Positions 3,065 through 60,307 of a DNA stretch of 64,000 nt are shown here, in pieces. The notes beneath the pieces were generated by a model. It was not told where the DNA came from and made no database searches. It saw only the letters and a program-made list of their open reading frames with translations. Every line of letters begins with the position of its first letter. Within the stretch, counting starts at the first letter, position 1. Origin of the DNA: Elsinoe ampelina (lineage: Eukaryota); NCBI GenBank assembly GCA_010093995.1, contig ML992502.1:2110541-2174540 (forward strand), read 5' to 3'. The translations under genes and the position numbers were made by a program.

Positions 3065-6000
3065 CTACCTCCTCTCTTAAGCGTATTTACCCTTAAATAC
3101 TATTATATATTATTTATTAATCTATTTTAGCCTTAGCTTATCTATATAAGAGTCTAGATAGTTACGTAGCACATTAGCTACTCCTTTAAGATTGTTAATT
3201 AGCTACTAGGTAAGATTCTCTAGATAGCCTTTCTAGCTTATATAAGTAACTAGCTTTCCTTGCAGTAAGTATATATTAATTATGTTATTTACCTTATACT
3301 TCTCTTTACCGTTGACCTCTATCGGAGGTAGTTCTTTAAAGGCTTAGCCTAGTAAGGGGTTATTTAGGTGTTTAGTAAGTAGGTCGGCGTAAAACACTAG
3401 ATAAATCCTTTATAGAGAGGCTAGTAAATCGAGCTTATATACTAGTAGTAATTGTTTCTTAAGAATCTTATAGAGACTAACATACTTTAGTAGTAGCTTT
3501 AGATTGCCTTATAGCTAAAGGTTCTTCGTCGATAGCTAAACTAAATCGCTAGCCTCGAACTCTATTAGCTAGCGGTGCTTATTAGCTTGTTCTACTATCC
3601 GTAACTACGTAATAGCAAGGTTAGCCTTAGTAATAGCTAGTGCCTCTTCTAGTTGCTTAGCAAGTGTGCGGATGTCGACCTTATTTAGCTTAGCTCTTGT
3701 TAATAGTATATTAGAAGGGAGCTAAAAGCTTAGCCTTAGCTTATACTCTCTAGTAACCTTAAATAGCAATAACTTAGTACTCTCTAATAGGTTAACGTTA
3801 GCGGAGAATTCTGCTACTAGTAGAACAAGTGTCTAATTACTAAAGCGTATAGCGTATAAATAGATAACTCGCTTAAACTTGCAATTTATAACTTCTAATT
3901 AGCCCGTCACGAAAATCCTAAGCCTAGAAAGCTAGAACTACTAGAACTGCTAGAACTATAGAGTATTTCGCTATTATCGTGCTAGGAGATCTAGTAGTTC
4001 TAGCTTTTCTACGCCTTGCTAGGCCTACTAGACTCGCTAAGTGCCTACTTTAGAACTAGTTTGTCTACGGAAGTAGGTAATTTATAGACATAGTAGGCCT
4101 ATAAAGGTTCTAGGTTATAGGTTTCTATATCGATCTACTTTGTTAGCCGAATTAGATAGGAAGATTACTATATAAAATCTGTAAGACTAGCACTATATAA
4201 CTTAACTAACCTAGCTATTCTAACGTTAGTTATGTCTTTAGCTGCCTTGCTTCTTCTACCTCTTTAAGCTATTTCTCCTCCTACGCTGTATTCTAAAGCA
4301 TGTTATATGTATTAAAATCTGCTATGTTATTAATAAACTTAAGCGAGGAATCTTTAGGAGTATCTTTATCTACTAGTATAACGTGTATAATTAAGTGTAC
4401 TTACGTTAGGGAGTATATCCGCCTACCTCTAAGCGTCCTACCTCTCCCCGCTATAGTTAATACCTAGGGCTTAATTACTATTATACCGTGTATATAGTCT
4501 GCCTTACTATTATGCTTATAAGGCAGAAAAAGGTCTATAAGAACACCGGTGTACTATCGGCAGTAGAGTAGACTAGTACCCTTAATGTCCTCTACTGTTA
4601 GTATATAGCATAGCTTTGCTAGTAACTTACTATCGAAAGCTAGTAACTCTCTCGTCTACTCTTACGAACTAGGTGTTAAGCTAGATTACTATTCCTATAC
4701 CTAGAGCTAGTTATATCTCTAGTTTCCCGGCCGGTTCTACTAGTGCTTAGCGCAACGTATAAACACTTACTCCTTAGCGTTAGAATTGTTAGTATTATTG
4801 CTAGATAGCCGATACATTTATAAAGCTATATAGAGCTTTACTCGTAATAGTAGAGTCTACTTCGAGTCTACTTCGAGGCGGTCTAACCTATCTAAATTGC
4901 TAGTTTATACTTCTCTAATGTCTTAATTGTCTTAACGAATAGTTTAATAACACTTCTATAGGAAAACTACAATTATCTAGGACAGTAACGAGCCTTTTAG
5001 TATTAGAATAAGCCTCTCGAGCTCCTCTACTATTCGCTACTAATCTAGGCCCTTTAAAGGCGTAGACTAATCCGAACGAGCCTATCTAAACGCTATCTAC
5101 ACGTCGACTAGTATAACCGTTAGGGCGGGGTTAGCCCCTTTAGGTTTAGTACTATACTAGGGTTTAGGTTAGCCTCTAGCTAGCGTAGTGCCGCTAAGGG
5201 CTTAGTAGTACTAGCACTAGCTCCGCACCGTAGCTATAATAGCACTACACTAGCACTAGGTATAGGTTAGGTCGTATATATTCTAGACGTAGTATAGTAC
5301 TAGGTTAGGTTAGTAGATAAGTAGTGTAGTGCTATTAAGTCCTTAGCGTACCCTTACTAGCACCGCACTAGAGTTACTATTCTTATAGTAAATTCTTATA
5401 GCAACTGCTATGTCCTATAACTCTTGTTACTTTTCTACTCTAAATACTTAAAGTTATAGTAGGTAAAGGATACTAGAGAGAAGCAAAAGTTATTAATTAT
5501 TAACTCTTATATACAATTACGACCTAATAGTAATTTATAGAAGATTAACCTAATTAACATTATCTATATAACCCCTATAAGCCTATTTTACATACTTAGC
5601 TAGTAAGCCGTATACTACCTAGAACTAATACCTTATTATCTTATTATCTGCTTTATCCGGAGAATATTCTATTCTTAGTAAGTTTACCCTTATATAAATT
5701 ATAACCCTTAACTAGTAAACTAGAGTACTAAAGCTATTAGGCAGAGTCTAAGACTAGAATAATTAGTTCTAGGTAGTTTAGCCTTCCTACTAACTTATAG
5801 TACAGTTGCGGATTGCCTTAATGCTATTAGATTACTAGTTAATAGTAAGTATAAGGCCGTCTAGGGCCTTAATCTCTACCTAAAGGTTATTAATAAATTT
5901 ATAATAAGTAATATTAGCCTAACGAATAATAGAGAGGCAAGTAGTAGATATAGTAGTAGATTTGCTTAAATTCTAGTAACTATTAGTATAAGTTATACTA

Positions 6001-6199
6001 TAGCAATATAAAGGCATACTAGATAGTTGTTTAAATGTTCCTAAGGAGAGAAAGAAGTAACTTAGCTAATAATCTACTTATATCCCTTAGTATAACAATA
6101 GCTATTATTTAATAATAGCTATTGTTAGTATTGTTGTTTTTTTATAATAGACAATAGCTATTGTCTATATTGTCGTTCTTATAATAGGTAACGCTAGAT

Positions 6200-7489
6200 A
6201 TATATACCTTTTAGTTGCTATTTCTTCTTCTTCCTCTTAAATCTCTCTTTCTTGTCGTTTAATACCTCTTTCTATAATGCCTCCTTCTTATACTTAACTC
6301 TACCCTAACCTAGCAGATCTAATCCCCTTTTAGCCTTATAAGATAACTCCTAGCAACCGCACTAGGCCCTTATACCTACGTTAGTATAAAGCCTACATCT
6401 GCTATATAACTCTTATATATCTTAACTTTAATAACAACTACAAAATCTAAGCCGAACATATCTATAATAACTATAGAGGTTTAGTACTTTACTATAAAGC
6501 CTGCCGCACTTATAATACCCCTTATAACTTTATAGGTGTTCCTAATCTAATCTTTCTCTATAATCTAACGAATATTAGTATAATATCTTATAGACTAATA
6601 ACATCTTCGACCTAATTAACATATAGTACACTATTAATTGTCTTATTCTTAACAGAAGAGCAGATCTACTCTTACTCTTTGCTATACGCTATAATGTTAA
6701 ACATAAGTAAGAGAAGTTAAATTATATCGACGATAGTAATAATAGTGTTTCTTCTAACAACTAATCTAATTAAAGTAGCGTAGTTAAAGCGTTAGCGAGC
6801 TAACAGCTTTAGATAGTTATTAATGATATAGACTTATACTTTATAAAGACTTAATTACGTTACCTCTTCCCGTAAGTAACTAAAATTAACTATAATAACG
6901 GCATATATAAGCTCTTAAAGTAGAAGTATTTATATTACCTCCGGCTGCACTAGTAGTTGTATTACTACCCTAGGTAGTACTATTAGTACTAGTAGTAGAA
7001 GCACCTCCCTTGTTGTCCCTTTTACTATTAGTATTATTCTAGAAAGTAACTTAACTATTATTAGGCTTAAACCTAGTAAGGAAGTTAGAAGTATAATAAG
7101 GTAGATATTAGTAATAGCATAGAGAGTAGCGTTAGTAATAAGTTAGCTAAGGTCGTAGGTGCTATAGTAGGGGTAGTTATTAAGGTTAATAATAAGGAAA
7201 GTAGCGCGGAGATTAGTTATAGCTTTAGCCTTTATATTATAGTCGATCTATACAATTTTCTTATTAACGTTTTTGTAAGTGAATCTAGTATAACTAATAT
7301 AGATACGAATATAGTTATATTAAAGATACTAGCGGGCAAGGGAATAAGCTTCCTTAGGGTAGCTAACGAAGGAAGACTATTAGTATTAGTAGGTAGAATT
7401 ATATATAGTAATAGAGAAGGTATACGCGGAAGTACTTTAGAGTAGGTGTTAGTATAGATACTATAAGAGCGTTATTACTCGGAGGCCAT
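6200..7489 (-). pseudogene. Unknown cargo gene of the hAT element (RIP-degenerate)
   Basis: ATGGCCTCC start near 7489. The de-RIP reading is protein-like (SFVGYPKEAYSLARQYLQYDHIRIHIGHTGFTYKNVNEKIVWID..). No recognisable domain; ends approximate. Confidence 0.4.
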
Positions 7490-7534
7490 TAACTAGATAC
7501 GCTTAGAATACTAGCCTCTAACCTTAGTAACGTT

Positions 7535-9950
7535 ATATAGTAGATCTTTGTCCTTATTATGCCCTTCTTCCTCGTTAACCTTTTTGTTACTTAAACTATA
7601 AGTAGTAATATCTCTAAAGTTATTACTTATGCTATCTATCCTGCTATTAGTATTATTATTAGTAGTAGTAAAATTGTCCGTCTTAGCTAATTAAATATTT
7701 TAAAGATTATTTTCTACTAGCTTAGAGACTATAATTTGTCAGATTATCTATAGAAGTAGTCTATACCTTTAATTGCTAATAATATTCTTCGCTATATTAA
7801 AAACATATTTAATATCTACACCGGCGATTAGTATTATAAAAACATTATAAGTAATATAAGCTAGTTATAGGAATAAGTGCTTATTTTCTTTCTACTAAGA
7901 AAGAATATTAAATTCTAATATTTCCTATATAGGCGAAGTTCTAAGGTAATTCTCCCCTTCTATTCTTATTATATAGACGTCGCTCTACTCTTATAAAAGT
8001 ATATTATCTTAGCTAGATACTAGAGGTATAAAGCTACTCCCTGTGTTTAATAAGAAAGGCTTCTTAAACTAGTAAGTAATAGACAAGGCTAGTAGAGGAG
8101 GTAGGAGAGTAGTTTAAGAAGGGTAGGTATTATTATAGTAATTAAGATAGTTAAGGAACTATTTATAGTAAAGTAATTTAAAATATAGTTCCTATAAAGC
8201 ATGCTTATACGTACTAAGTTTCTAAGTTAGATCTAAGATTATACTATAATTAAACAAGAAACCTTAACCTCTACTTATTTACTTATAATACTTAGAAAGC
8301 TTAGTATAACTAGCTTTCGCTACATTTTACACAACTAATAGCTAGTCTAAGTTGTCGTCCTCTTCCTAAGTAGACTTAACTATATTAAGGAAGTCGAAAA
8401 GGGTATTATACATAAGCTATATATATTATACTAATAGCATATAAGACTAACTTAGCTAGTTAGTTATATCCTTAAAATTCTCTAGTATTTAGATAACAAT
8501 CTTTAGATATGTCTATTCGGCGTAGCTAAGGTAAAGACATTTTATATCTATATAATCGATAGATACTATGTCTTAATTAGCTAGCGCTTCGTTAGTTTAG
8601 GGCTTATATATAATTATAATCTCTGCGTTAAGCTGTTTATCGATAATTAGTTAAAGTTTAACAGCTCGCTTATATATATTATATGTTAAGTTCTAATAGG
8701 TATAAATGTCCTAAATAACTAAGAGTCGTTTACGAGGAGGTAAATATACTTAAAGGGATTTAAAGTATTAGTAGCGTTAAGGGGACTAGTTAATTATAAT
8801 ACAAATTACGTAGAGCTTTAAAATTAGTTAAAAAACTATAAGAAAGAACTATAAGAAATATAACTTACTTTATAGAGAGAATTCGGAACTAATAGAGTTA
8901 TTTAAATATTATAGAGATACTACTTCTTAAGCTTATTAGCTTTCTTATTGTCCTTAGTAGTTTCTAGCTATAGGGCTTAAATAATATCTTATATAACAAG
9001 ATTAATTATATAGGCTAGACATAGAATTATATTCTTAATAGAGAACTAGTATATACTCTTCTTCTTAAGACCTTATTATACTTTAGATTATAGAGTGTTA
9101 TTGTTACTTACATTATCTACTATAATAGTAAGAAGGCATATATTAATCTTTTTTTCATTTAGAACTCTTAGTAGTTCTATGCCGAGCGTAACTCTAGTAT
9201 ACCGTCTACTAATTAGTACAAAATCTAGTAGGTACTTATATACTTACTAGTTATTATTAATATAGTATACCTTTATAGCTATAAAACTTAGATAGTTATT
9301 CGTAGACTAGCTGTCTAGTATAATTAAAACTTTTGTCTAACTACTAAGATTAGTAAGAAGATTAGACTAAATGTCCTTATAGTGCTCTTTTAATAGCCCT
9401 AAGGCCTATGTCCGACCTAGAACATTAGTATATAGCTAGAGGAAATATATAAATTAGAGAAAGAAGGAATTATTAACTATTTAGAATAACTAATTACAAT
9501 TAATAAGGACCTTAATAAGCTCTTTTTTAAATTGTTCTAGAGAGAATTATAGTATATAAGATATAGTGCTAGTAGCGTTTACTTTTAATTATATTAGAGC
9601 TATCTAAGCTACTAATTATTTATAGCTAGGAGATTTTATATTCTAGTAGCTTTAGCGTCTAAGATGTTTTATTAGGTGTTTATTACTAATCAAGTTTATT
9701 ATTAGGTGTTATAAAGCTCTACTATAGTAGAGACAATACATAAGAGGTATTCTATTAGTAAGCTTAGTACCTTTATTAAAGTTGGCCTAAATAACTCTAT
9801 AGCGAGTTATAGAATTCTAGTTTAGTAGGTTTCGTATTCCGCTAACCCTTGATTTACTACCTATTAATGTTATAGGCTACTATGTTTTTTAGGCTTATAT
9901 AGCTAGCTATTCTTTAAGTAGTATATTTAGTTAGTAGAGTAGATAGCTAA
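7535..9950 (-). pseudogene. hAT transposase (RIP-degenerate, intron-containing)
   Basis: C-terminal dimerisation domain after de-RIP: DILSWWKENEHLFPQLARIARDVFAIPIAGVDVERVFNMAKDIIGDRRHRL (~7910-7755). Intron GTAAGT...CTAAT..AG at ~8868-8816. 5' end approximate. Confidence 0.85.
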
Positions 9951-10259
9951 CAATTTTAATAGTTTTATAGAATTAAGTAGAGAATAGATTGTCCTAGTAA
10001 TTAATATAGAACTCTTTAAGCTTGTAGGGGAGAGATAGTAGTAGCGTAACAACTTCTAAGAGTATCTATAGTTAAGGATTAACTAAGTCTTTATTAAACA
10101 CTAATATTTTAAGAGTAGAGATATAGAATATTACTAGCTATATAACAAGGAGTAGAAGACTATAAGAATGCTCTATAAAAATCTATTAGCTACTTTTAAT
10201 TTATAGATTAAAAAAATTTTAATAGTGTAGAACTAGAAAGCTACTAAAACTATAGTCTA

Positions 10260-11553
10260 ATTTTCCTAACTTAAGGTTAATCTATTTATTCTTATCTATA
10301 TTGTCCTTACTCTTACTCTTCTTATTATTATTACTACTCTTATCTATTGCCTTATTATTATCTTTATCCTAATTCTCTTTATTAGAATTGTTAAAGTCTC
10401 TAGTAGTAACTACTTTATAGTATATTTTAGCTACTTCCTTAGTCTCGTACTTGTCGGGTTCCTTATTAAAAAGGTCCTTAATCTTAGAGTTATTCTTAAC
10501 TTCTTCTTTAACCTTATTATTACTATACTTAATATAGTAATTATTAGATTTAAGTAAAATATTGTTATTCTTGTACTTAAATTCTAGTTTAGGAGTAGGT
10601 TTATATTTGCTTCGATAGATTAGTATATAACTATAAGAAATAACTATAAGAAATAATATATACCTAATTATTCGCTTATACTACTTAGAGTTTAGTAGGT
10701 GTTATATTCTTAATAAACTTCTTAAACTTAGCTTAGTTACTATTATTATAGTTACTAGTATTATATAGTAAGTTAATACTATTATAGTAGATCTTATAGG
10801 TCTATTTCTTAAGAATTCTACTAGTACTAAGAAGATGTTTTACTTAGCAATTCGAGAATATATTTGTCTCGTTATAGAGCGCCTTCTTTATATAATTAGT
10901 AAGGAGTTACTTATAGCAAAGAAGAGTATTAGCTTTATAGATACTACTCTATTTTTAGTAGATAGATATAAACTTATCCTCTAACTATTCCCCTATATAA
11001 AATTAGTAGATATACTATAAGAATATACTATAAGAAATATACTACTTTACTAGGTATAATAGCAAGTCTCTACTATCTTCTTATATACTATATTAAAGGT
11101 AGCTTCTTTTTCCTTATCGGACATTACTTAGAATTCTTTAGAGTTCTTAAGTTTTGCCTTAAGTATACGTTTTATAGAGCAATTAGCATTACTAGTAGTA
11201 GTAAGGGCTTTCTCCTCTATACTAGCTTATATAGCGTAATTTCTTTACTAAATAGCTTACTAGGTATTACTAAGCTATGCTTTCTACTATAGAATTCTAA
11301 GGGGGTAGCTATAGTAAGGAGTTCTAGTATTCTAAAAGCGATTTTTAATCTAGTATTTAATCTTATTAGCCTCGGAATTAAAACTCTATAGTCTAGTTAG
11401 TATTTAACTATAAGAAGCATCTATAAGAATTACTCCTATTATAGTAAGGATTACTTCCTCTTTCTTAGTTATTTCTTTAGTCTTAATTACTAGAGTATTA
11501 GTTATCTCTTCCTCTTTACTAAAGATTTACTAATCTATAGGATTAGTAGACAT
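10260..11553 (-). pseudogene. Unknown multi-exon cargo gene with acidic N- and C-terminal tracts, divergent from the H3-like gene
   Basis: ATGTCTACT start near 11553 (MSTNPMDQQIFGEEEEM..). Three intron-like gaps near 11430-11390, 11050-10995 and 10662-10610. Asp/Glu-rich tail at ~10380-10300 after de-RIP. Confidence 0.45.
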
Positions 11554-11929
11554 TATAGATTAAGAATTAGTAGTGATTTATAAGAGAAGGTAGAATATTA
11601 AGTATAACAGGGAGTAAGATATAAGATATAAGTTTTATAAGGAAAAGATAAAGAGAGAAGAATTTAGCATTTCTTATACATATAGTAAATAGAGTAGCTA
11701 GAAATATAAGTAATAATAGGTATTAATCCTATTGTTGTACTAATATAAAGTTGTTAATATTGTTAATATAAAGTTGTTATAGTAGAGAATAACAATACAA
11801 AATTCATATTCTATATACTATTATAAATTCCTTAATAAGGCTTAATATCTTACTCTTAGTATTTTTGCCTTACTCTTCTTTACCTTTATAAACAAATTTT
11901 AACAATTAATTTGACAAATTTATATAGCT

Positions 11930-12511
11930 ATAGCTTATAAGAAGCAAGTAACACCTCTAAAAAGGGTAAAGCTAAGGAAGTAAGGCGCTAAGAAAACTGC
12001 TACTAAAAAGCCTACTATAGGTAGTTACGTAACAAAATTTAGACTAGTATTAACTAGATAAATTTGCTAGGTAAAGAGCTATAGGTTTAAGCTAGACAGT
12101 TAGTTTCTTATAGTAAATTCTTATAGTCTTATATCTAATATAGTATAGCTATTACTCTCTAAGAGATTTGTCGCTACTAGAAGACAACTAAACTTCTTAT
12201 ATATAAGCTTCTCTTCTCCTATGTTGTTTATAACATTACGTAAGATATTAAGTTAACACTTATAAGTAGAGATTTACGCTTTACACTAGATGCTATTAAG
12301 TATCTCTAGAAAGTAAGTAAGGTAATACTAGTAGAATATTTTAAAGGTATATTAACTATGTATTTAGAATATATAATACCTTATACTAATAACTATAGTA
12401 GACTATAATCTTAATACTATCTATGCTAAGTATTATACTATTATATAGAAAGACTCTTAGCTTACTAAGAAATATTATAACAAGTACTACTTACTTACTT
12501 TCTCTAATTAG
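11930..12511 (+). pseudogene. Histone H3-like (CenH3-like features) gene, RIP-inactivated, 2-3 introns
   Basis: De-RIP: MARKKQV..PKR.KPRKQGAKKTA.KKP / VK.HRFKPG / [36 protein letters not shown](+5 aa)DLRFTPDAIE.LQEASEA.LVEYFE / D.NL.AIHAKR.TIMQKDSQLA. Colinear with the H3 histone fold. GT..AG introns at ~12099-12148 and ~12348-12401. Confidence 0.9.
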
Positions 12512-15233
12512 TAAGACCTCTCCTCTATAATACTATAAGAATAGACTATAAGAAATAGGCAGGTTTATTTTTACATAGACTAGACTATTAAATTTCCTTT
12601 CTATAGACTTATTACAATACTAAAGTATAGTATAGTAGCTATAGTTACCTTAAAGCCTAACTAAGGCGTAGTACTATAACGTAGTATAATACTAGGATTT
12701 AACTCCGGTACTAATTTAGTATAGTGCTATTATAGTGTAGTATAGCGCTATTATAGTATAGTACTATTCTTACTTAACTACGGTGTAGTACTAGTGCTAG
12801 TGTAGCTCGGCGTAGTACTAGTACTAGTGCTAATATAGTAGAGTGTAGAGCTAGTGCTATTTAGTTTAGTACCGGGTGCTAACCTACTAAGAACAGCTTT
12901 ACACTAGTACTAGGGTCGGCCTTTAGCCGCCCTAACCCCGCCCTAATAGTTACACTAACGTCGATAGCCTAAGTTACTATAATAGAAGCTTCTAGCGCCT
13001 CTCTTCTATTAGCTAGAGTTAATATATATAGTATAAAGCTGCTATCGAAGGCTAATTTAAGGCTAAGTAGACGATAATTATATACTATAACTTAGTCCTT
13101 CTATCTGTTCTTCTTGTTTATTAGCTTAAATAGGTTCTTAATAAACTTAATATAGTTATACTTAGCATAATTAGAATCGAGGTTTAGGGCTACACTAAAG
13201 CGTTAGATAGCTTACACGAAATGCGTTATAGCGTGCTACTTTAGGAAGTTAAAATAATCTACTTTGTCTCTAGTTTAACTACGATATAGATAGTAAATTT
13301 CCTTATATTTATTTAGATAGAAAAGGGCGAGATCTATATACCTTAGCGTGTCTTTATTATAGCTCTTATACATTACAAGTAGTATAAAGTCTACTAATGC
13401 CCTTAGATAATATATAGCTTTCTCTATACATATCTTAGCTAGGAGAGGAATAAATACTAGTAGAAGTTAACGGAGTAAGCTTTTTTACTCCTTTCTAGTC
13501 TATTGCTTAACAGTAGAGAAGTAGCTAAACCTCCGTAGGCCTAGATACGCTAGAATGCCTATAAAACGGCGATTAATAATATTAAGCACACGTTCGGTAG
13601 AGAAGCGCTTATGTCTAGTAATCCTAGCCTACTCCGTAGCTGCCTTAAAGTAGCGTATTTCTAGGGTAGGTATTCTGTCCTATAGTATTAAGGTTGTCTA
13701 TCCGACGACGTATATAAGTACGCCCTTTAAGAGCTAATAGAGGATATCTAGCACTATAGCCTCGTAGATGTTAGTCTACTTATAGCCCTATACGAAGTAA
13801 TCGACATTATATACTAAATCTACACTTGCTATTACGCTCTATTACTATATTTAGATTTGCCTCCGCGTTAATATATAAGTATATAGCTCTACTCTCGCCT
13901 TAAGGTCTTCCCTTAGTTCTAGCTTAATTAGGCAAGTCGTACAATAGTAAAGAGACTTAACGCTAGTAATCTTAACCTACTCGGTATAATCTGTTATAAT
14001 AGCTACTATAATTAGGAAATATCTTCTAGTACTACTGTCCGAATAGACAATATTAACACCTTTACCTCTAACAATTTGCTTAATCGGATCGAAGATTCTC
14101 TTTATATACTTATAATAAACAGTTGCCTTCTATATTATATCGCTATTCTTTATAATAGGTAAGAGCCTTACTAGAAGCTAGCTAGGCTAGGTATTTCTAT
14201 TATAGATATATAAAGGCACATTTCCGATAGAAAGGTAGATAGTATAAGTAGTAAGGTCTCCTTAATAATTAGTTACCTAAGTTTAATCGCTTACGAGGAT
14301 AAGTAGTATAATAGTAGCACTATTAATATTTATACGCTCTTAAGCTTCCTACTACTAGTCTCCTAAAGCTAGGTTATTAAAAATTCACCTAGAGAATTTG
14401 TCTTCTACTACCTCTATAAACGTTTAAAACAGGCTATATACTATATCGTCCTTAAAGCTATAGTGCTAAAGAAAGAATTATATTATATCTATTACATTTA
14501 TATAGTAGAGAGTATAGCCTATAGCTCCTCGATTTATAGGTAGTTAGAATAAAGTCTTTATCTATGCTTCTATCTCCGAATAGTTATCTAATTTGTCTAT
14601 TTAACTACGAAGTTTGTCTAATATCTTAAAACTAAGCTAATCGGTTAAAGGCTAAATATATAAGTTATATAGGAGATAGGTAATAGTATTCTTACTAATC
14701 TTCTCTTCGAAGAGCTATTAAGTAAACATAGTATCTATTTCGTTTCTAAAAACATAGCTATAGTCTAGATCGTCTACGAACTAGACATCTATCTTAGCGG
14801 ACCTAGTCCTATAAGGGATTAGTGTTAGGAGTGTTTATATATGCTCTTTATAGTGCTACCTATACTTATAGTGCCTCCTCTACTCTTTAACTAGTGGCCT
14901 TCTCGTACGTCTATATAAAGTAGACTAACCTTCCTAAAGAAGATAGCTAACTCTTCCTTATTAAGTTCGCTAATAAAATAGAAAGGGCAAAGGCCGAGAT
15001 ATGCCCTTCTATCTCCTTCTTTTTCTCTCTTACGTAGTTCTCTCTGTCGATGCTATACTAGGGGCTAATAGTAGCCTTATCTACACGTGTAAAGCCTCTA
15101 TCTACTTTAGCGTTGCTCTTATTATTAAGGTAGACACCTAGATAGAGAGAGTCTTATACTACTCTTTCTTTACTTTGTTTATCTATGCCTTCTATCTATA
15201 TACCTTCTTCGCTATTTAAAGATATCTCCTCCT

Positions 15234-51914: not shown

Positions 51915-52221
51915 GAAAAGGCTACTACTATAAGTGTAATAAAGGAAGGAGAAATTATAAAGAGGCTAGTTAGATACTTATATCTCTTTAATTAAGACTT
52001 ATAAGCTAGTCTATTTATATAAATAATAGCTGCTAGGCTATTGTTAATAGTTACTATTGTTGCTAGCAATTATAAGCTAAACTAATAGTGAATTCTTACT
52101 AATAATTAGCTAACACTAACAATTATAAGCAATTATAAAGAGATAAAGTAATAAGCTAATTACTTTACTTATATATAACAGGACAGTTCTCTAGCTTTAA
52201 CAATCTATACTAGAGGGGGAG

Positions 52222-52363
52222 TGTTATAATAGAAGGCTAGTACAGCTTCTCTGGTACTAAAGAACTAGCACTGATGAGTCAGCGCACGCACAGTAGATAA
52301 ATCGGTTACTGTAACTCTCTGAATGAAACACACGTCTCTTGATCCGATTTGCCAGTTACAACA
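52222..52363 (+). repeat. 3' LTR of the left Copia element (142 bp)
   Basis: Directly follows PPT GAGGGGGAG. Termini TGTTATAA...TTACAACA form an inverted pair allowing one G>A change. Confidence 0.75.
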
Positions 52364-52456
52364 GATGAAGTGAGCACCGGCCTTGGCATTGACATCCCAC
52401 TTTACCGTCATTGCTCCGTCCCCACTTCAAGACATCAAGTTGCACACATAGCCACC

Positions 52457-54927
52457 ATGGAGTCGATTTCGAGGGTGTCGACTCTACTGGAAGCAGGTCA
52501 GTCGATCAGTCACTCTCACAACGCAGCCATTGACCATTCATAGCTCGGGAGCTCACCCTCGAAGCCTCTCGCGATGCCTCTTCGGCGAGACGGCCACTCC
52601 GGCCTCTACCACCGGCGCAGATCCAGAAGCTGCTCGATAGCAGATCAGAAAGAGAAGTCCTGGAAGGTCTTAGAAGGGTCATCGCCATGCAGTACACCGC
52701 CTCTCTTGCGACCACGTTACCATTCTTTCCGGCTGTCCTGAAGACCCTCTCGCATCCCACGAGCTCGACTCGTCCTCTGGTCTACGCGTATCTGGTACAC
52801 CATGCAGAAGCAGACCCGGATACCGCACTACTCGCGGTTAACACCATACAAAAGTCCCTGTCCGATTCAAATCCACGAGTACGGTCGTTGGCATTGAAGA
52901 CCATGTCTGCTCTCCGTATGCCAGTCCTAAGTCAGATCATCTCGCTGGCCATCAAGAAGGGCGTGGCAGACATGGCACCCCTCGTGCGAAGGACAGCTGC
53001 GTTCGCGTGTGTCAAATGTATTCGGCTGGACCCATCTACCTTGCCACAAGTTACCGAGTATCTGGCGCAACTTATTGGAGATCCTCAATACTACGTCGCC
53101 GGCGCTGCTGTAGCAGCCTTCATGGAGGTCTGCCCTGAGAGACTAGATCTTGTCCACAAGCATTATCGAAGTCTCGTCAAGAAGCTCGTGGACATGGACG
53201 AATGGGGTCAACTTGCAACACTGAGACTCTTGACTATCTATTCCAGGAAGTGCTTCACGTATCGGACGCAACAAGTCCCGAGGACGCAGCCTACTCAAAC
53301 AGACAAGTCGAATTCGTTCTACGATGAAGAGACGGCCCAGGACGAGAATGCAGATCATGTCTCCCAACAAGTCCTCGACTCTGACTTGTCACTCTTTCTG
53401 GATTCTACATTACCACTCTTGCAATCGCGAACATCTGCTGTCATACTGTCTGTCGCGAATACGTACCTTTCTCTGGCACCATCTTTGTACCTGCATCATG
53501 CAATCCGCCCGCTTGTGGCGCTACTGCGAGCGCCGGAGGATATTCGACCTATTGCGCTTCACAACATCGTACTCGTAGCACTCACTGTACCTCAACTCTT
53601 CGTCCGTTACCATCGTCACTTCACCCTCCATCATACCGACTCTCCACAGGTCTTCGGTCTGAAGCTGGAGATACTCACGTTGATCTTTCCACACTGTAGT
53701 ACTTCGATCCAAAGTCTGACACTGGCCGACTTGGAGCACTTCTCTCGTTCGCACGATGCCAATATAGTGAAACAGGCAGTACGAGCTATAGGGAGATGCG
53801 CGCAAGCTTCTTCGGCTCAAACCTCAGCACGATGTTTGAGACTACTGCTGAGACAGATCAACAGCGCAGACGATACACTTGTTGCTGAAGCCCTGGAGAC
53901 CATACGACATCTGATACAACAAGATCCATCGAGACACAAAAAAACTGTGGTGCGACTGGCGAAGAAGTTGGATGAGCTCAAGAGCGACAAAGCTCGAGCA
54001 AGTGTCATCTGGCTGGTAGGCGAGTTCGCAGGTCTGGCCAAGCTGGAAGAAAGTGTAGCGCCGGACATGCTGCGCATCCTTGTCAGAGGATACGCCGACG
54101 AAGGGGATGAAGTCAAAGGCCAGATTGTATTGTTGGCAGCCAAGATCTACTGCATTTGGTGTCGAGAAGAGAACGAGAAGAAGAAATCAAATGGCGAGAT
54201 CGCGAAGGAACACCAAAGAGTGGGCGAGGACTTTTCCGCAGCACTGCAAGAAGACGAGAATGGGTTTGCCGAGGCCAATACTCAGGAAGATGGCAAACCG
54301 GCGCCTGGAAGCGAGGGCAAGCACGCAGTTGAGCTTTTGTGGCAGCACGTGCTGTTACTTGCACGATATACATCCAGCTACGACCTCCGCGACCGAGCGA
54401 GGCTGTTCCGCGCTCTGCTCTCGGTATCGTCCAGCACAGATCTGGCTTCCCTGCTACTTCTGGCGCCCAAGCCAGTTCCACAGGCGCCCAGTCCCAGCGA
54501 GCGCAGAAAAGGCTTCCAGCTCGGCAGCGCAAGCCTGATCATCGGCGAAGACGCTGGCGTGCATGGGCTCAAGGGCTACGAAGCTCTACCGGACTGGGTC
54601 AAAGAAGGCGAGGAACCTGATCCACGTTTGAGGAACGCAGAAGGCGAAAGAAGAGAGTATGCGGCACCTCGACCAACGGCAGGCAGGATGCTGGATGACG
54701 CGCTCAAAGAACGAGGTAGTGGTAGCAATGCCTCGAGCTTCAAGGAGAAGGCACCGGTCAGTCTCGATGACTGGCTCAATGAGGAGCCAAAGAAGGTAGA
54801 GAGCGAGGCTAGCGGGGAGAGCGAGTATGAGACGGACGAGGAAGAGACTGAGTATGAGACCGATAGTGAGGAGGAGGAAAGTGATTCCGACGAAATTGTT
54901 GCAGAGAGAAGGCAATTGGTTAGCTAG
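52457..54927 (+). CDS. APL6: AP-3 adaptor complex beta subunit (beta-3 adaptin), ~807 aa; exons 52457-52496 and 52544-54927
   Basis: GCCACCATGG start. A 47-nt GT..AG intron gives MESISRVSTLLEAARELTLEA, in frame with the 746-aa ORF. Adaptin N-terminal signatures (ALLAVNTIQKSLSDSNPRVRSLALKTMS, LVDMDEWGQ, YDLRDRAR). Acidic C-terminus. Confidence 0.93.
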
Positions 54928-55519
54928 ATACCTATAGTAATGCATATGCTCGATATCAGTCGCCTGGGTTGATCAGGACGAACAGATGGCCTGCCACCCT
55001 CGAAATGCGACGCTAACAGCCGACTTTGGACTCGCGTAGCTGGAGAGAAATATAACATACAACACCCAAACCAAAGACCATGCCAACATTGCCGTCGTCG
55101 TCCCCTGTGACGATCTACACCCGGAAGTCGGCATCGAAACAAGCATCCCCGCACGGCGCTATGCAAAAGCTTCGCAAGATCGGCAATGCTTGTGTCTATC
55201 ACCCTGGTATTTTCACCATCATATCCCGCCATGAGTGGATCTCGTTTCCTGCTCGGCCCTATACGCGTCGTCATTCCTTAGTGGAGTCAGAGAGGAATGG
55301 CTAATCCATATGCCGCGGCCGTTAATGCCACCTCATCTCCCCTCTTCGTTGAAAAGGTATACAAAGCATACATCTCCTCTCACGCTCTTTCTCTATACTT
55401 CTCTCTCGGATAATTCAAACAACCTCTCTCCTTCCATCTCCTCCCTCCTCTACCCTCTCCCCCACTTCCCACCATAACCACTCCTCAACCCCGACTACCG
55501 CCACCCCTCCGCCGCCACC

Positions 55520-57016
55520 ATGTCCCCCTCCCACTCCTCTCCTCCTCCCCCACCCCTCGAATCTCGCATCCTCCGCAAGCTAGACACCAACCTCCTCCCC
55601 CTCGTCTGCGCCCTCTTCCTCCTCTCCTTCCTCGACCGCTCCAACGTAGGCAACGCCCGCACCGCCGGCATGGAACGCGATCTCCACTTCTCCCCCAACG
55701 GCAAAGGGGCACACACCTACGACTGGCTGCTCACGATCTTCTACATCAGCTACATCTGCTTCGAGCCACTGATCCTCGGGTGGAAGGTCGTCAAACCGCA
55801 CATCTGGGGTGCCGGCGTCACTTTCTCCTGGGGACTGATATCTACGCTCCAAGCCGTCACGACGTCCTGGTCAGGCATGATGGCATTGCGTTTCCTGCTT
55901 GGAGCAGCAGAGGCTGCGTACGGGCCAGGAATAATCTATTTATTGACATTTTTCTACTTGCGAAGGGAAATCGGGCTGCGTATCGGGGTGTTCCTCTCCA
56001 TGGCCCCCCTAGCAACCTGCTTCGCCGGCGCCCTCGCCTACGCCATCACCCGCGAACAAAGCAGCGTAGCCCCCTGGCGCCTCCTCTTCATCGTCGAAGG
56101 CATCCCCACCGTCCTCATGTCAGTCGTGGTCTGGCTCTTCCTCCCGGACGGCCCACACAGCGCTCGCTTCCTCACCGCAGAGGAGCAGGCCGTCGCGGCG
56201 GACAGAGAAGTGAGGCAGGTCGGCACGACGGCGCGCATCGGCGGCCTGAAGTGGACGGACGCCAAGGAGAGTTTCCTCGACGTCAAGTCGTGGTTGCAAG
56301 CGCTGATGTACTTCTCGTGCAACACTGCGTACGGGAGTCTGCCGGTTTTTCTGCCGACGTTTTTGCAGGAGAGTTTGGGGTTTGGTAGTATTGATGCGCA
56401 GAGATTGACGGCGCCGCCGTATTTCTTGTCGTTTGTGATTACGATTTTGACGCCTTGGGTCGCGGATAGGTTGCAGCAGAGGGGGTGGATGATTGTGTTG
56501 CTGTCGTGTGTCGGGGCCGTGGGATATGTGTTGTTGGCCACCGTGGAGGATGTGTGGGTGAGGTATTTCGCGGTGTTTCTGGCGGCGGGAGGCGTGTTCC
56601 CTGCGATTTCGAATGTGTTGCCTTGGGTGACGAATAATCAGGGGAGTGAGACGGGGAGAGGAGTGGCGGTCGTGGTGTTGAATCTGGTTGGGCAGTGTGG
56701 GCCGGTGCTCGGGACGAGGGTCTATCCTACGAACGAAGGGCCGAGGTATATCAAGGGCCATGCTATCTGTGCTGGTTTCTTGTTCTTCAATGCTTTTGTC
56801 GCACTGGTGTTGAGGACGTATTTGAAGTGGCAGAATGGAAAGTGGGATCGACAATTTGGGACGGTAGAGGAGCAGAAGGCGAGAGGAGTGCAGAGGGAGA
56901 CAGTGATCGAAGAGAAGCAAGAGGCTTTGGCAGAAGAGAAAGGAGAGGAGAAGGGGGCAGTGAATGAAGAAGTGGGAACGGAGAACTACGGGCCTCTGTA
57001 TAGATACGTACTATAG
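55520..57016 (+). CDS. MFS transporter, anion:cation symporter (Dal5/Tna1-like) family, 498 aa, intronless
   Basis: RKLD..LLP, FLDRSNVGNA, LRFLLGAAEA, PWRLLFIVEG, LPDGP..ARFLT; about 12 hydrophobic segments. Confidence 0.93.
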   Translation: MSPSHSSPPPPPLESRILRKLDTNLLPLVCALFLLSFLDRSNVGNARTAGMERDLHFSPNGKGAHTYDWLLTIFYISYICFEPLILGWKVVKPHIWGAGVTFSWGLISTLQAVTTSWSGMMALRFLLGAAEAAYGPGIIYLLTFFYLRREIGLRIGVFLSMAPLATCFAGALAYAITREQSSVAPWRLLFIVEGIPTVLMSVVVWLFLPDGPHSARFLTAEEQAVAADREVRQVGTTARIGGLKWTDAKESFLDVKSWLQALMYFSCNTAYGSLPVFLPTFLQESLGFGSIDAQRLTAPPYFLSFVITILTPWVADRLQQRGWMIVLLSCVGAVGYVLLATVEDVWVRYFAVFLAAGGVFPAISNVLPWVTNNQGSETGRGVAVVVLNLVGQCGPVLGTRVYPTNEGPRYIKGHAICAGFLFFNAFVALVLRTYLKWQNGKWDRQFGTVEEQKARGVQRETVIEEKQEALAEEKGEEKGAVNEEVGTENYGPLYRYVL

Positions 57017-57073
57017 GGACCGCACTCAATCTCACTTCTTCTCACATGTCTTGCTCTTCCCCTGTGGATACTC

Positions 57074-58646
57074 TCAAGCCTTCCTCGGTCTAACCTTGAC
57101 CTTCAAATTAGTCTGCTTCACAAACCAATTATTCTCCGTCCTCAACCCGCCCTCCCTTGCTACCTCCCCTACCAGCTCGTAATCAAACCTCACCACCAAC
57201 TCTGGTACCAGCTTGCCTATCTCCAACAACGAGATGTTCTTTCCGATGCATGTCCTACTCCCAGCGCCAAACGCCATAAAGTACCGCTCCATAGTGCTGC
57301 TACGTTCTGCGCTCTGCAACCACCGCTCCGGTACATAGTCATCGGCATCGGCACCAAAAATGCGCTTGTTATGGTGAGCCACCCATGAGTTGACGCCGAC
57401 TTCAGTGCCAGCTGGGAAGAAGACACCGGCTATGGTCGCGCCTCCTGCTGGGACGACGCGCATCATTGGGAGACCGGTGGCGGGATGGAGGCGGAGACCT
57501 TCTTTGATGCAGGCCTGGAGGTAGGGAAGTGCTTGGGCCTGTTGGTGAGTTGGGATGGGCGACAGATGACCGTTGGCGCGGGCTGCATCAAGCTCAGCAC
57601 GGAGGAGAGCAAGCTTGGTAGGATTACGCAGGAGATGGTAGAGGATGCCAGACAGGGAGACGGATGTAGTGTCAGAGCCAGCGCCGATATTGGTGAGACA
57701 GGTGCCGAAGACTTCCTTTTGGAACTTCTCAGGTTCGCGCAGCATTTTGGAAAGGAAGTCGTCGCCGTCTTGTTCGGAGATCTTCTCACTGTTCGGTTGG
57801 GCGTGACGTTCGGATATATTCTGAGCGGTGAAACCAATCAGGTAACCCATACCACCCCCCGAAAGACGATTGTAGAGACCGAAGAGGTACGGATGTAGCC
57901 AAGAGTAGACACCTACGTTCGAGCCATAGATGACATACTGGTGCAATGCATGGAAGATGCCACCTATTTCTTTCCCTTCGTCGAGGAAGCCGAAGCGTTT
58001 GGCAAAGGTGATCATGCCAATCGTGTCAAAGGCATAGCACTGAAGCCAGTGTTGGAGGTCAATCACCTCGTTGGTTTGTGAGAGACGTTCAAAGTGGTCA
58101 AGCAAAAGGTTTGTGCAAGTCTCGACAAAGGGTTCCAGAGGCAGCAGGTTTGTCATGGAGTACAAATTGGCAACCTTGCGTCGCAGCTCAGAGTGGCGCT
58201 TTGGATTCAGGTCTGTGAAGAGATCGTGCACGCGATCGTCCGGGTTACCACTTGCATAGTACCAGCTGTTCTACAATGACAGTAGACTTGTTCCATTTCC
58301 AGGGGATTTCCATTCGACGTACCTTTACAAAGGCTGTACCATGCCCATAGATGATTCGTATGGCTTCAAGATCATCTACCGAGTACTGGTCCGGTGCAAT
58401 CTTGACAATCGGGCCGAATTCTTTGTGTAGTGCAATATTTGTCTTTTCGTAACTACCACTCCACACGTTCCTGAGATACCATAACTTTGTGAAGCGCGCG
58501 AGAAAGGGACCGGGTACTCGGCGAAGGGGTGATGAATATGTCTTGATGAGGGTAAAGAGGATATAGAAGAAAGGAAGGGATAGAAAGAATGGTATGAGAA
58601 GTCCTGATTGTCTGATGCCGTCCAGTAGTTCGGTTACTTTTGCCAT
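57074..58646 (-). CDS. Cytochrome P450 monooxygenase (pisatin-demethylase-like), ~506 aa; exons 58646-58323 and 58270-57074
   Basis: N-terminal membrane anchor and PGPFLARFT; AGSDTT I-helix; KEGLR (ExxR); PERW; heme motif FGAGSRTCIG. A 52-nt GT..AG intron joins the two ORFs in frame. Confidence 0.93.
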
Positions 58647-59512
58647 CTTGCGACAGGATACAAGCAGATCAAAGAGACAAAATAGAAGTGGACGAGGGGG
58701 AAAGCTTCAAACTTACCTTTGTACAACTGACCCTCAGAAGGATGTAATCTTGGCAGGCAAGGAACGGTCGATGGGGTATGGACCGGGGAGGATGTCGAAT
58801 GAGTGGTTTCGAGCAGCGTGGAGGATGAACTTGTGTCCAACCTCCACATTGATCGGTCCGACAGTGTCTGCGTGCTGTTCCTCCATCTGTTGTCGTCTCA
58901 TTTCCCTTGCCCTTGATGCCGAGATAGGTCATGTGAGACACAGACAATTCTATTGACCTGCCGTAGGACGTCTTTCTTGGGTGAAGACGCTGCCGTCCAT
59001 CACACTGGTCTGCTTCCATTGTGCTTGTTGAAGACGAAGGGCTCTTCGTCGACGTTATATGGTGTGGTCTGGATGTGGAGAAACAAAACGCCACAATCTG
59101 GAGAAAATGGGGGGTATCCCGCGGGTTCCTCTCCATGCTGCCTTCACTGCAACTTCATGCTGTAACTACTACGCAAGCCCAGTGAATGGACTGCAGACAA
59201 CGTGGATCCTGTAGAAGCTGCCAAAATGGCGGCGAAATATAGGGGAACGGACTGCTGTGTGGCGCGGTTCAACATGCACATTGGAGATAGACACTACCAG
59301 GCCAACGAGTGTATGCCGACGTTGCTCAGATCGACCGCGTGCTCGATATGCAACAGCTCATGCTGTGTGTTCAATGATTCGGGCCGACTATCGTATTTTC
59401 TACTTTTTCAACATGTCGAATGCTCCGGGCCGTTTGCGCTTGCCGGTCTGTCAGCCGTGGCTATGCTTGCATATTTCATCTCGTTCATCAAACAGGGCGT
59501 AGGTGAGCGGGA

Positions 59513-60307
59513 CTACTCGACCTCCTGGATCTTCGCGCTTGAGCCTGACGCAGCGCCTTCCTTTTTATCTTCGCCCTCGAGCTCGGGCATCTCGTCGTCA
59601 TCGTCATCATCGTCATCACCGTCATCGCCTGCGCCGCCAAAGTCCATGCCGTCCATGCCAGGCATACCACCTCCTCCTGCACCGAGCTTGGAGAAGTCAA
59701 TGCCGCCGAAGCCACCGTCGCCGCCGCCCATACCGCCCATACCTCCCATACCTGGCATACCGCCCATCCTGCTCATGTAGTCATCGTCCTCGACGACCTC
59801 GTTCTGCTCGTCCTCATCCACCCACTGATATACTGTCAGTATAGCACACGAGTCCTATAGTCGTCACACGTACCTTGTCAAAGTTGGTCTTGAGGAAGTG
59901 TGCGCGCGACTTGTCCTTGAGTAAGCGAGGCCAGTACTCTTCCTTCAGCTCTTTCTTGCGCAAAACCAGCTCGACGTCGCGGGGAGTGTGGTGGATCTTG
60001 CTCTCCTTCGGGTCGATCTCGTCGAAGAACTCGAGCTTCACAGCATAGGTTGCCTTTTTCGTTTCCGAGTAGCCCTTGAAGTCGAGGTATGTCGGCTGAA
60101 TGTCTAGCTTGATCTGTTTCGGGTCGACATCAGGTACGGAGATGGTGAGATAGACGTGATTCTTCTCGGCCTCGGTGCTGCTAGACCGTTGCGCCCAAGT
60201 TACTGCAAATTGTGAGCCGCGGGATCCTTCACGAGCTGATGTGACCTACCCTCGGGGGTGATCTGCTTGAGACCCGCAGTGTCTGTTGTATTCGTCGGTT
60301 GCTGCAT
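59513..60307 (-). CDS. SBA1: Hsp90 co-chaperone p23 (Sba1/Wos2), ~232 aa; exons 60307-60250, 60202-59874, 59824-59513
   Basis: Spliced product TPEVTWAQRSS..YLTISVPD..YWPRLLK..FLKTNFDKWVDEDEQ followed by a GGM-rich acidic tail. Canonical GT..AG introns. Confidence 0.93.

What the first reader, a model, noticed from the sequence alone, without database searches (positions are those of the whole stretch)
5380..12554. Eight paired 9-bp motifs with an invariant 13-bp period mark the introns and non-coding DNA of the histone-carrying hAT
Seen: CTATAAGAA-N4-CTATAAGAA starts at 8836/8849, 10160/10173 (second copy CTATAAAAA), 10631/10644, 11015/11028, 11408/11421 and 12533/12546. The reverse form TTCTTATAG-N4-TTCTTATAG starts at 5380/5393 and 12105/12118. 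Five pairs lie in predicted introns (one in the transposase, three in the acidic cargo gene, one in the H3-like gene), always reading TTCTTATAG on the sense strand. The two outermost pairs face each other. The N4 spacers vary, which argues for a selected binding site rather than a recent duplication. Known analogy: Arabidopsis VANDAL elements use VANC proteins that bind short motifs in their own non-coding regions for sequence-specific anti-silencing. Inference: this may be an undescribed fungal TE self-recognition system, or a splicing-control motif. The pre-RIP sequence cannot be fixed from one copy.
Basis: partly seen in the sequence, partly recalled or inferred. Interest (0 to 1): 0.88.

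Follow-up and report, generated by a model that had tools for sequence, protein, structure and literature searches.

The report
Paired 13-bp motif in fungal transposon
A family of fungal jumping genes that carries its own histone gene has the same short sequence, written twice exactly 13 bases apart, in almost every intron, gene leader and end region; it looks like an address label read by one of the element's own proteins.

Summary
They lie in a 7,849-bp, heavily RIP-mutated hAT transposon (5109-12957). It has TIRs and an 8-bp target duplication, and one public contig shows the empty site.

The element belongs to the known histone-H3-like-carrying hAT family of Pyrenophora tritici-repentis.

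Five little-mutated relatives from metagenomes and the published Ptr consensus carry the same pairs at the same places. These are almost every intron, the leader of each gene and both end regions. There the motif reads TTATCACAG, with 13-nt spacing in 47 of 50 neighbour distances. The window's TTCTTATAG is therefore RIP-mutated TTCTCACAG. Its third base is C in 15 of 16 half-sites here but A in 74 of 78 in relatives, a concerted, lineage-specific change.

Related H3-hAT families carry 13-bp-unit arrays of other motifs (read by eye).

Best reading (about 0.5): binding sites in a fixed 13-bp register for an element-encoded DNA-binding protein, like VANC or TnpA motif arrays. Minimal introns would serve as carriers. 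An RNA-level role in splicing or expression remains a serious rival. The searched literature does not describe the motif.

The parts
5101..5108 (.). left copy of the 8-bp target-site duplication (ACGTCGAC)
   Evidence: Read. A run X1 contig joins 5102 to 12960, skipping 7857 = 7849 + 8 (table 5).
5109..5134 (+). left terminal inverted repeat
   Evidence: I12: 26 nt, 88% complementary to 12932-12957
5380..5401 (+). outermost pair, reads TTCTTATAG-TAAA-TTCTTATAG on the + strand (inward-facing), 271 nt from the left end
   Evidence: Homologous inward-facing pairs near that end in L001, L002, L005.
7700..10090 (-). hAT transposase gene (RIP-broken). Limits approximate. One intron; the second family intron is absent here.
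   Evidence: Pfam Dimer_Tnp_hAT E=4.4e-5. HMMER best hit is the P. tritici-repentis transposase. tblastn of P0005/P0080 covers 9816-8866 and 8821-7721.
8816..8868 (-). transposase intron 1 (53 nt): GTAAGT, 5 nt, pair 8836-8857, 8 nt, CTAAT, AAG
   Evidence: Frame change between the two tblastn pieces. The spliced junction in P0080 and a retained 48-nt intron in P0005 lie at the same place.
10160..10181 (-). pair between the central-gene stop and the transposase start (first sense copy TTTTTATAG)
   Evidence: Counterparts in L001 (2852, 3098) and L005 (3106).
10282..11553 (-). central gene of unknown function (acidic C-terminus), RIP-broken, three introns
   Evidence: tblastn of P0088/P0089: 11283-11131 and 10611-10378. 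Family found with L001 exon 2.
10610..10663 (-). central-gene intron 3 (54 nt) holding pair 10631-10652
   Evidence: Exon 4 homology starts at 10611/10609. Same position as L001 intron 3.
10993..11042 (-). central-gene intron 2 (50 nt) holding pair 11015-11036; the 5' splice site abuts the pair
   Evidence: Conserved E-W-L block follows the intron as in L001. Sequence read.
11386..11433 (-). central-gene intron 1 (48 nt) holding pair 11408-11429; GTAA runs straight into the first copy, as in L001
   Evidence: exon 2 homology at 11283-11074
11930..12511 (+). histone H3-like gene (RIP-broken). The start ATA is presumed to be a mutated ATG (inference).
   Evidence: Pfam Histone E=0.011, below cut-off. 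tblastn of P0091/P0093/P0096: 12151-12345 and 12401-12472.
12024..12148 (+). H3-like intron 1 (125 nt) holding pair 12105-12126, then CTAAT and TAG
   Evidence: Same codon position (G-T|V-A-L) as the 48-nt pair-bearing intron of L001. Phase worked out.
12346..12400 (+). H3-like intron 2 (55 nt), the one intron without a pair
   Evidence: Gap between tblastn pieces. The L001 counterpart (47 nt) also lacks a pair.
12533..12554 (-). outermost pair, reads TTCTTATAG on the - strand (inward-facing), 22 nt after the H3-like stop and 403 nt from the right end
   Evidence: Counterparts L001 277, L002 262, L005 array 466-540 and in Ptr_cons.
12932..12957 (-). right terminal inverted repeat
   Evidence: I12
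12958..12965 (.). right copy of the target-site duplication (ACGTCGAT, one C-to-T difference)

Best explanation
The pairs are cis-acting recognition sites of the transposon family. The 9-bp site is TTNTCACAG (here TTCTCACAG before RIP), set in a fixed 13-bp head-to-tail register. I think an element-encoded, sequence-specific protein most likely reads them on double-stranded DNA.

The element is compact and almost all coding. The sites therefore sit in the only free DNA: the roughly 25-nt filler of minimal 44-54-nt introns, the short gene leaders, and the stretches just inside the subterminal repeats.

The reader protein would bind cooperatively to adjacent sites and so mark the whole element as self. 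I infer that this regulates the element's own chromatin, transcription or transposition, as VANC does in VANDAL elements and TnpA in Spm.

Shown: the sites, their register, their placement, their conservation and their lineage-specific change. Inferred: that the reading is on DNA, which protein reads (the transposase N-terminus with its Cys/His pattern, or the central-gene protein), and the effect of binding.
For: 1. Conservation of the sites against diverged spacers and flanks. In 39 pairs from L001-L005, information is 0.9-2.0 bits in motif columns, 0.3-0.8 in the four spacer columns and 0.03-0.44 in the flanks. The motif columns other than column 3 were part of the search pattern.
2. The register is nearly invariant: 47 of 50 neighbour distances of 40 nt or less are exactly 13, or 36 of 39 without L006, which repeats L005. 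By contrast, the distance from 5' splice site to pair is 0-12 nt and from pair to branch point 0-9 nt.
3. Column 3 was left free in the search. It is A in 74 of 78 half-sites of relatives, with no C, but C in 15 of 16 here. A concerted change of this kind suggests a co-evolving reader.
4. The sites also occur outside introns: 8-45 nt before each start codon, after the central-gene stop, facing inward at both ends, and as a 6-7-unit array of TTATCACAGATAT at one end of L005/L006.
5. The published Ptr consensus has 11 pairs in the same layout (by eye).
6. Other H3-hAT consensus records hold arrays of different motifs with the same 13-bp unit: TCCGGCTACAGAT about 9 times, GCCGTAGCCGGCA about 11, GCTACTATCGCGA about 7, GATATAGCTAGCG about 15 (counted by eye). 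A constant register with changing sequence fits a protein of fixed geometry.
7. VANC21 shows the same layout: 9-nt motifs, one orientation, in introns, intergenic and terminal non-coding regions.
8. The central-gene protein family has an invariant [RK]-G-R-P and an invariant basic stretch that begins a long predicted helix. That these resemble an AT-hook and a basic DNA-binding region is recalled, not tested.
Against: All intragenic sites are in the sense orientation: 6 intron positions, 3 leaders and the central-gene 3' side in L001. A double-strand reader does not require this. It could reflect splicing compatibility or descent by duplication, but it is what an RNA element would show.

The pairs sit at a fixed place in the intron, between the 5' splice site and the branch point.

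No DNA-binding domain was detected by Pfam in the central protein or in the transposase N-terminus. The structure model of the central protein is poor (pLDDT 57).

A 13-bp step puts successive sites on different faces of the helix. No binding data exist. The Mycosphaerellaceae arrays were read by eye from printed passages only.
Confidence: 0.5

Rival explanations
1. The pair is read in the RNA. It would be a cis element in the leaders and introns of the element's pre-mRNAs, bound by an element-encoded or host RNA-binding protein. That protein would control splicing or intron retention, or boost expression from transcribed sequence, like the intron-mediated-enhancement motifs of plants.
For: Every intragenic pair is in the sense orientation. 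In relatives, 6 of 7 introns carry it, between the 5' splice site and the branch point; in five window introns the branch motif follows at a constant 8-9 nt. Each gene leader carries it 8-45 nt before the ATG.
Against: Strict 13-nt spacing and long tandem arrays are unusual for RNA-protein sites. The terminal pairs lie after the stops of the outward-reading H3-like and transposase genes in the antisense orientation. A host reader would not explain the concerted A-to-C difference. The 13-bp arrays of other motifs in related families are up to about 15 units long, too long for these introns.
Confidence: 0.25
2. The sites are host transcription-factor sites that the element has collected to drive its three genes, for example for stage-specific expression.
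For: Pairs lie close upstream of all three start codons. L001 has a triplicated promoter module, each copy with a pair. The relatives' reverse form CTGTGATAA contains a GATA-like core (recalled).
Against: The GATA-like core is lost in this window's lineage (CTGTGAGAA before RIP) and in the TTGTCACAG units of L005. All 16 half-sites changed together, which a conserved host factor does not predict. Most sites are in introns far from promoters.
Confidence: 0.08
3. Sense copies (leaders, introns) and antisense copies (3' ends of the two terminal genes) base-pair with each other in the transcripts. Two 9-bp helices would loop or circularise the RNA.
For: The H3-like and transposase transcription units each carry sense pairs and an antisense pair after the stop codon. 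In the window, 12104-12133 and 12526-12555 are 90% complementary over 30 nt (I5). The column-3 change keeps complementarity.
Against: The central gene has only sense copies. Spacers are mostly not complementary: 2 of 4 positions match for the window's 12105/12533 pair and none do in L001. Changing all copies together is hard under pairing alone. Tandem arrays are not explained.
Confidence: 0.05
4. The pairs are a relic. One short intron cassette spread within the element (introner-like) and the shared core has no function of its own.
For: The introns are nearly nothing but 5' splice site, pair, branch point and 3' splice site.
Against: A relic would decay like the spacers and flanks, but the core is kept across 55-69%-identical transposase lineages. 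Pairs also occur without splice signals in leaders and end regions. Intron positions are old and shared.
Confidence: 0.05

Closest known systems
H3-like (H3L)-carrying hAT transposon of Pyrenophora tritici-repentis (Manning et al. 2013, PMC3538342; consensus 'Ptr_cons' in Dhillon et al. 2019, PMC6710886, Additional file 2)
   Same: Three genes between TIRs: hAT transposase, central ORF of unknown function and a histone H3-like gene (passages). The best HMMER hit of the window's transposase is the Ptr protein. Central-ORF relatives occur in Pyrenophora and Alternaria. G-rich subterminal repeats are shared. There are 11 pairs in the same layout.
   Different: The window copy is RIP-dead. It is 7.85 kb against about 5.6 kb, with about 2.2 kb of extra DNA at 5402-7700. 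It lacks transposase intron 2, and its motif has C instead of A at position 3. Neither paper mentions the paired motif (text searches).
VANC anti-silencing proteins and their motif arrays in Arabidopsis VANDAL21 (Hosaka et al. 2017, PMC5735166; passages read)
   Same: A 9-nt motif enriched in one TE family, arrayed in one orientation in introns, intergenic and terminal non-coding regions. The arrays are often tandem repeats, and the motifs differ between related families.
   Different: VANDAL is a Mutator-superfamily element of plants. No VANC-like protein was recognised in the central gene product or the transposase N-terminus, the only products screened against Pfam. Here the sites come as pairs in a strict 13-bp register inside minimal fungal introns. 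Binding and any effect on silencing are untested.
Subterminal binding motifs of plant transposons: the 12-bp TnpA motif of En/Spm and AAACGG of Ac (recalled; the abstract of preprint 10.64898/2026.08.24.746577 was read for TnpA as a transcriptional regulator)
   Same: Short motifs repeated in direct and inverted order, inverted between the two ends, and read by an element-encoded protein that also regulates the element's promoter.
   Different: Those motifs cluster in the terminal few hundred bp. Here that zone is filled by G-rich repeats, and the pairs are spread over the whole element, mostly in introns.
H3-carrying hAT families of Mycosphaerellaceae (Dhillon et al. 2019, PMC6710886; Results read)
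   Same: hAT with 8-bp TSD and captured H3-like sequence, RIP-inactivated, living in AT-rich blocks. Their consensus records hold tandem arrays with a 13-bp unit (by eye), and one has GGGTTGGGTT-type ends.
   Different: Other motifs (for example CCGGCTACAG) and long arrays rather than pairs. The window's motif and its 8 other possible pre-RIP forms, both strands, are absent apart from one TTCTTATAG. The authors found no nucleotide similarity to the Ptr element.
Introner-like elements of fungi (van der Burgt/Collemare; search listing and abstracts only)
   Same: Several introns share a sequence core.
   Different: By their abstracts, ILEs are longer than regular introns, have stable predicted structures and occur in hundreds of host genes. 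These introns are 44-54 nt, lie inside one transposon, and share only a 22-nt core that also occurs outside introns.

Membership tests
hAT superfamily DNA transposon | 8-bp target-site duplication | tested here: met
   ACGTCGAC / ACGTCGAT flank the element. An empty-site contig skips 7857 = 7849 + 8.
hAT superfamily DNA transposon | short terminal inverted repeats | tested here: met
   26 nt, 88% complementary (I12)
hAT superfamily DNA transposon | transposase with hAT C-terminal dimerisation domain | tested here: met
   PF05699 E=4.4e-5, 23.6 bits against a cut-off of 21.4, on the stop-masked frame
H3L-carrying hAT of Pleosporales (Manning 2013) | transposase, central ORF and histone H3-like gene between the TIRs | tested here: met
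   The Histone Pfam hit alone is below cut-off (16.5 against 26.4 bits), but tblastn with H3-like proteins covers two exons.
H3L-carrying hAT of Pleosporales (Manning 2013) | closest transposase relatives are the Ptr element's | tested here: met
   Best of 66 HMMER hits is P0002 (E=3.3e-45), named as a P. tritici-repentis Dimer-Tnp-hAT protein.
VANC-type sequence-specific anti-silencing system | family-specific short motif arrayed in non-coding parts of the element | tested here: met
VANC-type sequence-specific anti-silencing system | element-encoded VANC-family protein in a Mutator-superfamily element | tested here: not met
   The element is a hAT. The central protein has no Pfam family and no informative Atlas neighbour.
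VANC-type sequence-specific anti-silencing system | protein binds the motif and removes silencing marks | not testable with these tools
   needs EMSA, DAP-seq, ChIP and methylation or H3K9me3 profiling
Introner-like elements | longer than regular introns, stable structure, many copies in host genes | tested here: not met
   Introns are 44-54 nt, with one of 125 nt. Spread into host genes could not be tested because no genome is held.
Ac/Spm-type subterminal transposase-binding repeats | motif copies clustered within a few hundred bp of both ends | tested here: not met
   Only 2 of 8 pairs here, 3 of 14 non-coding pairs in L001 (16 rows less two antisense matches in coding sequence), are near ends. 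The terminal 250-400 bp hold other, G-rich repeats.

The most novel reading that the evidence does not exclude
The H3-carrying hATs of Dothideomycetes encode a self-contained chromatin-marking system. The central-gene protein has a conserved GRP/basic segment and an acidic, chaperone-like tail. It reads the 13-bp-register sites that the element has planted in every free stretch of its DNA, using minimal introns as carriers. It then loads the element's own divergent histone H3 there, which shields the element from heterochromatin or other genome defence. On this reading the histone is not a captured passenger but a working part. The constant 13-bp register with changing motifs records a long co-evolution of reader and sites.
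Probability: 0.12. Interest if true: 0.95.

Novelty: new variant of a known kind. Interest (0 to 1): 0.75.

Why it matters
Transposon-encoded self-recognition through short motif arrays is documented in plants (TnpA, VANC) but, as far as my searches show, not in fungi. This family is old and widespread in Dothideomycetes. It always travels with a histone H3-like gene whose role is unknown. It still has near-identical, expressed copies in a culturable species.

A conserved site set with a strict register gives a concrete handle:
- it predicts a specific reader protein;
- it offers a direct test of DNA reading against RNA reading;
- it may explain why the element keeps a histone and an unknown central gene.

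It is also a striking case of intron sequence under strong constraint. Nearly the whole free part of six of seven introns is one conserved 22-nt module. That bears on what short fungal introns can be used for.

Tried and rejected
The other 44 kb of RIP DNA in the window served as control.
- No second copy of the element lies in the window.
- Sequencing runs: no RNA holder was listed. The two runs guessed to be RNA (X4, X7) laid nothing, which says nothing about expression. The 'other letters' table shows 40 of 422 variable places, none in a motif. That is too few to judge motif variation among copies.
- Pfam found nothing for the central protein, the transposase N-terminus (the Cys/His pattern was seen by eye only) or the extra ORF-like stretch 6277-7263 (one search used a wrong frame).
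- ESM Atlas gave no usable neighbour for the central protein. Its AlphaFold model is poor (pLDDT 57, pTM 0.24), so I made no fold search.
- Complex prediction (central protein with H3-like) was not run. No cognate unspliced pair of sequences was at hand, and a histone without H4 is a poor test.
- Earlier-findings look-ups returned nothing.
- The idea that the motif copies the TIR tip was rejected. The TIRs (TAGGCTGGTAAATGGG-type in relatives) do not resemble CTGTGATAA.
- Resemblances to 3' splice sites, 5' splice sites (reverse form), PUF sites and the U6 ACAGAG box were weighed by eye and dropped as untestable or not fitting.
- Two pair-like matches inside coding sequence were not counted as sites. 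They are L001 3759/L002 3552/L003 624, which encode V-I-I-T-R-Y-K, and L002 3874.
- Literature: motif strings found only unrelated primer-type hits among the 25 papers listed, of 1,535 that hold a string. Searches for the H3-hAT and text searches of the two key papers found no mention of the motif. The supplementary PDFs of Manning 2013, including the element figures, could not be seen and might show the introns.

Full report
**What is in the window**

The eight pairs exist exactly as reported (0 in 100 shuffles). Of the 20 copies of the 9-mer in the window, 15 lie in them, against 5.2 copies expected.

The DNA around them is strongly RIP-mutated. TpA/ApT is 1.87 and (CpA+TpG)/(ApC+GpT) is 0.26 in the element. 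The GC-rich end of the window gives 0.72 and 1.21.

The pairs lie in one element, 5109-12957. It has 26-nt TIRs and an 8-bp target duplication. A contig of public run X1 joins 5102 to 12960, skipping element plus duplication, so the ends are fixed by an empty site.

The family is multi-copy in two organisms. Run X1 laid 3,631 contig pieces, whose differences are transitions at all but one of 355 places. Run X3, from a second organism, laid 12,040.

No other copy lies in the window. The other 44 kb of RIP DNA holds no pair of comparable quality, and period 13 is not a favoured repeat length there (3 of 43 TRF rows).

**What the element is**

With stops masked as X, the minus strand gives the hAT dimerisation domain. 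The plus strand gives a weak histone match.

A HMMER search with the masked transposase exon found 66 relatives. The best is named as a Pyrenophora tritici-repentis hAT protein. [quoted passage not shown] H3-carrying hATs of Mycosphaerellaceae were described in 2019.

So the histone-carrying hAT is known. What has to be judged is the motif.

**Gene models in the window**

- Transposase. tblastn with intact relatives puts it at about 10090-7700 on the minus strand. Pieces 9816-8866 and 8821-7721 lie in different frames. The gap is a 53-nt intron, 8816-8868. It starts GTAAGT and holds the pair, then CTAAT. P0080 is spliced at exactly this point, and P0005 retains a 48-nt intron there.
- Central gene. 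Its conserved exon-2 block lies between the 11408 and 11015 pairs. Its exon-4 block starts right after the 10631 pair.
- H3-like gene. The pair lies in intron 1, at the same codon as in relatives. Intron 2 has no pair.

**Relatives**

An alignment of six transposase relatives was used to scan metagenome contigs. It returned six loci with 55-69% identity, five of them about 6 kb long, the size of whole elements, with little or moderate RIP.

They carry pairs at the same 13-nt offset with the motif TTATCACAG. The window's TTCTTATAG is thus TTCTCACAG with both CpA dinucleotides changed by RIP.

In L001, removing three introns of 45, 48 and 48 nt, each holding a pair, gives an intact 350-residue central protein. 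The H3-like gene has a 48-nt intron with a pair and a 47-nt intron without.

Transposase introns 1 and 2 were located from tblastn boundaries without reference to the motif. They hold a pair in 10 of 10 cases in L001-L005, two of them degenerate.

These introns are little more than 5' splice site, pair, branch point and 3' splice site.

Pairs also lie in other places:
- 8-45 nt before each of the three start codons;
- about 30 nt after the central-gene stop;
- just inside the G-rich subterminal repeats at both ends, facing inward;
- at one end of L005/L006, as a 6-7-unit array of TTATCACAGATAT.

L006 repeats L005, with the same list shifted by 393 nt.

The published Ptr consensus is the last record of Dhillon's Additional file 2, headed Ptr_cons. 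It shows 11 pairs in the same layout (read by eye).

By hand back-translation, the retained introns in proteins P0005 and P0085 are also compatible with a pair. This is inference only.

**Constraint**

Single sites are about five times commoner than in shuffles: 29, 24 and 27 against means of 5.5, 5.3 and 5.9.

Of 50 neighbour distances of 40 nt or less, 47 are exactly 13. The distances to the splice signals vary.

Spacer and flank columns carry little information.

Column 3, which my search pattern left free, is A in 74 of 78 half-sites of relatives and never C. In the window it is C in 15 of 16, with one T that RIP explains. Sixteen sites differ from their counterparts in the same way, so the sites have followed a lineage-specific reader or are renewed from one another.

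**Wider family**

Other consensus records in the same supplementary file belong to the Mycosphaerellaceae H3-hATs. They contain tandem arrays whose unit is also 13 bp but whose sequence differs:
- TCCGGCTACAGAT, about 9 units;
- GCCGTAGCCGGCA, about 11 units;
- GCTACTATCGCGA, about 7 units;
- GATATAGCTAGCG, about 15 units.

I counted these by eye in printed passages and could not load the records into a script. If this holds, the register is older than any one motif.

**How it most likely works**

The strict register, the arrays, the sites outside introns, the inverted end copies and the lineage-specific change point to a protein of fixed geometry that belongs to the element. I put reading on DNA at about 0.5.

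The layout matches what was shown for VANC21. That is a 9-nt motif arrayed in one orientation in introns, intergenic and terminal non-coding DNA, differing between related families.

Candidate readers:
- The transposase N-terminus. It has a Cys/His pattern seen by eye, but Pfam gave no zinc-finger hit.
- The central-gene protein. It has an invariant [RK]GRP, an invariant basic segment that starts a long predicted helix, and an acidic tail. Pfam found no family.

**Evidence against**

The uniform sense orientation inside genes and the fixed place in the intron are what an RNA element would show. I keep that rival at 0.25. The antisense copies after the stops of the two terminal genes fit neither reading simply.

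**Novelty**

Neither key paper's text mentions the motif, subterminal repeats or binding sites. Searches for the motif strings and for follow-up work found nothing relevant. Supplementary PDFs of the 2013 paper could not be seen.

The kind of thing, transposon-borne arrays of short recognition sites, is known. The fungal setting, the 13-bp pair filling minimal introns and the link with a histone cargo are new.

Noticed in passing
window 5402-7700: About 2.2 kb between the transposase 3' end and the left pair has no counterpart in the ~6-kb relatives. It holds three copies of a palindrome-like ACAATAGCTATTGT motif (6093-6160; one search shows the 35-nt self-complement) and an ORF-like stretch from ATG 6277 with few stops. 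No Pfam family was found.
   Followed up: partly
L001 1-270 and 5990-6110; L002 and L005 ends; window 5125-5175 and 12900-12950: The subterminal regions are built of G-rich, telomere-repeat-like units (GGGTTGGGGTTGGG, GGGTTAGGG), partly in ~33-nt higher-order repeats. The Peu_cons record of the 2019 paper starts with similar units. They may be the true end-binding sites.
   Followed up: no
window 8207-8150: Relatives have a second transposase intron, after A-Y-E. The window's reading frame runs through that point without one, so it is a precise intron loss here or a gain in the others.
   Followed up: partly
window 11417 joined to 10645/10647 in run X3 (table 5c): Low-depth contigs of the second organism join the pair of central-gene intron 1 to the pair of intron 3. 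This is what unequal recombination between the repeated pairs would produce.
   Followed up: no
L001 960-1460: The H3-like upstream region is a threefold repeat of a ~210-nt module. Each copy has a pair preceded by an ATCGCACAAT-like motif, which itself resembles a site with one extra G.
   Followed up: no
window 11741-11791: A 23-nt direct repeat (AATATAAAGTTGTTAATAT...) and several ATTGTT/AACAAT words lie in the divergent promoter region between the central gene and the H3-like gene.
   Followed up: no
window 52000-62000: A sharp switch from 25-38% GC RIP DNA to a 47-58% GC block without RIP signature. The window spans an AT-isochore/gene-region border.
   Followed up: no
L001 944-353 (minus strand): The element's H3-like protein (163 residues after splicing) has a long, lysine-rich N-terminal tail. 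By my recollection of canonical H3, it lacks the usual A-R-K-S context around K9. Comparison with canonical H3 was not run.
   Followed up: no
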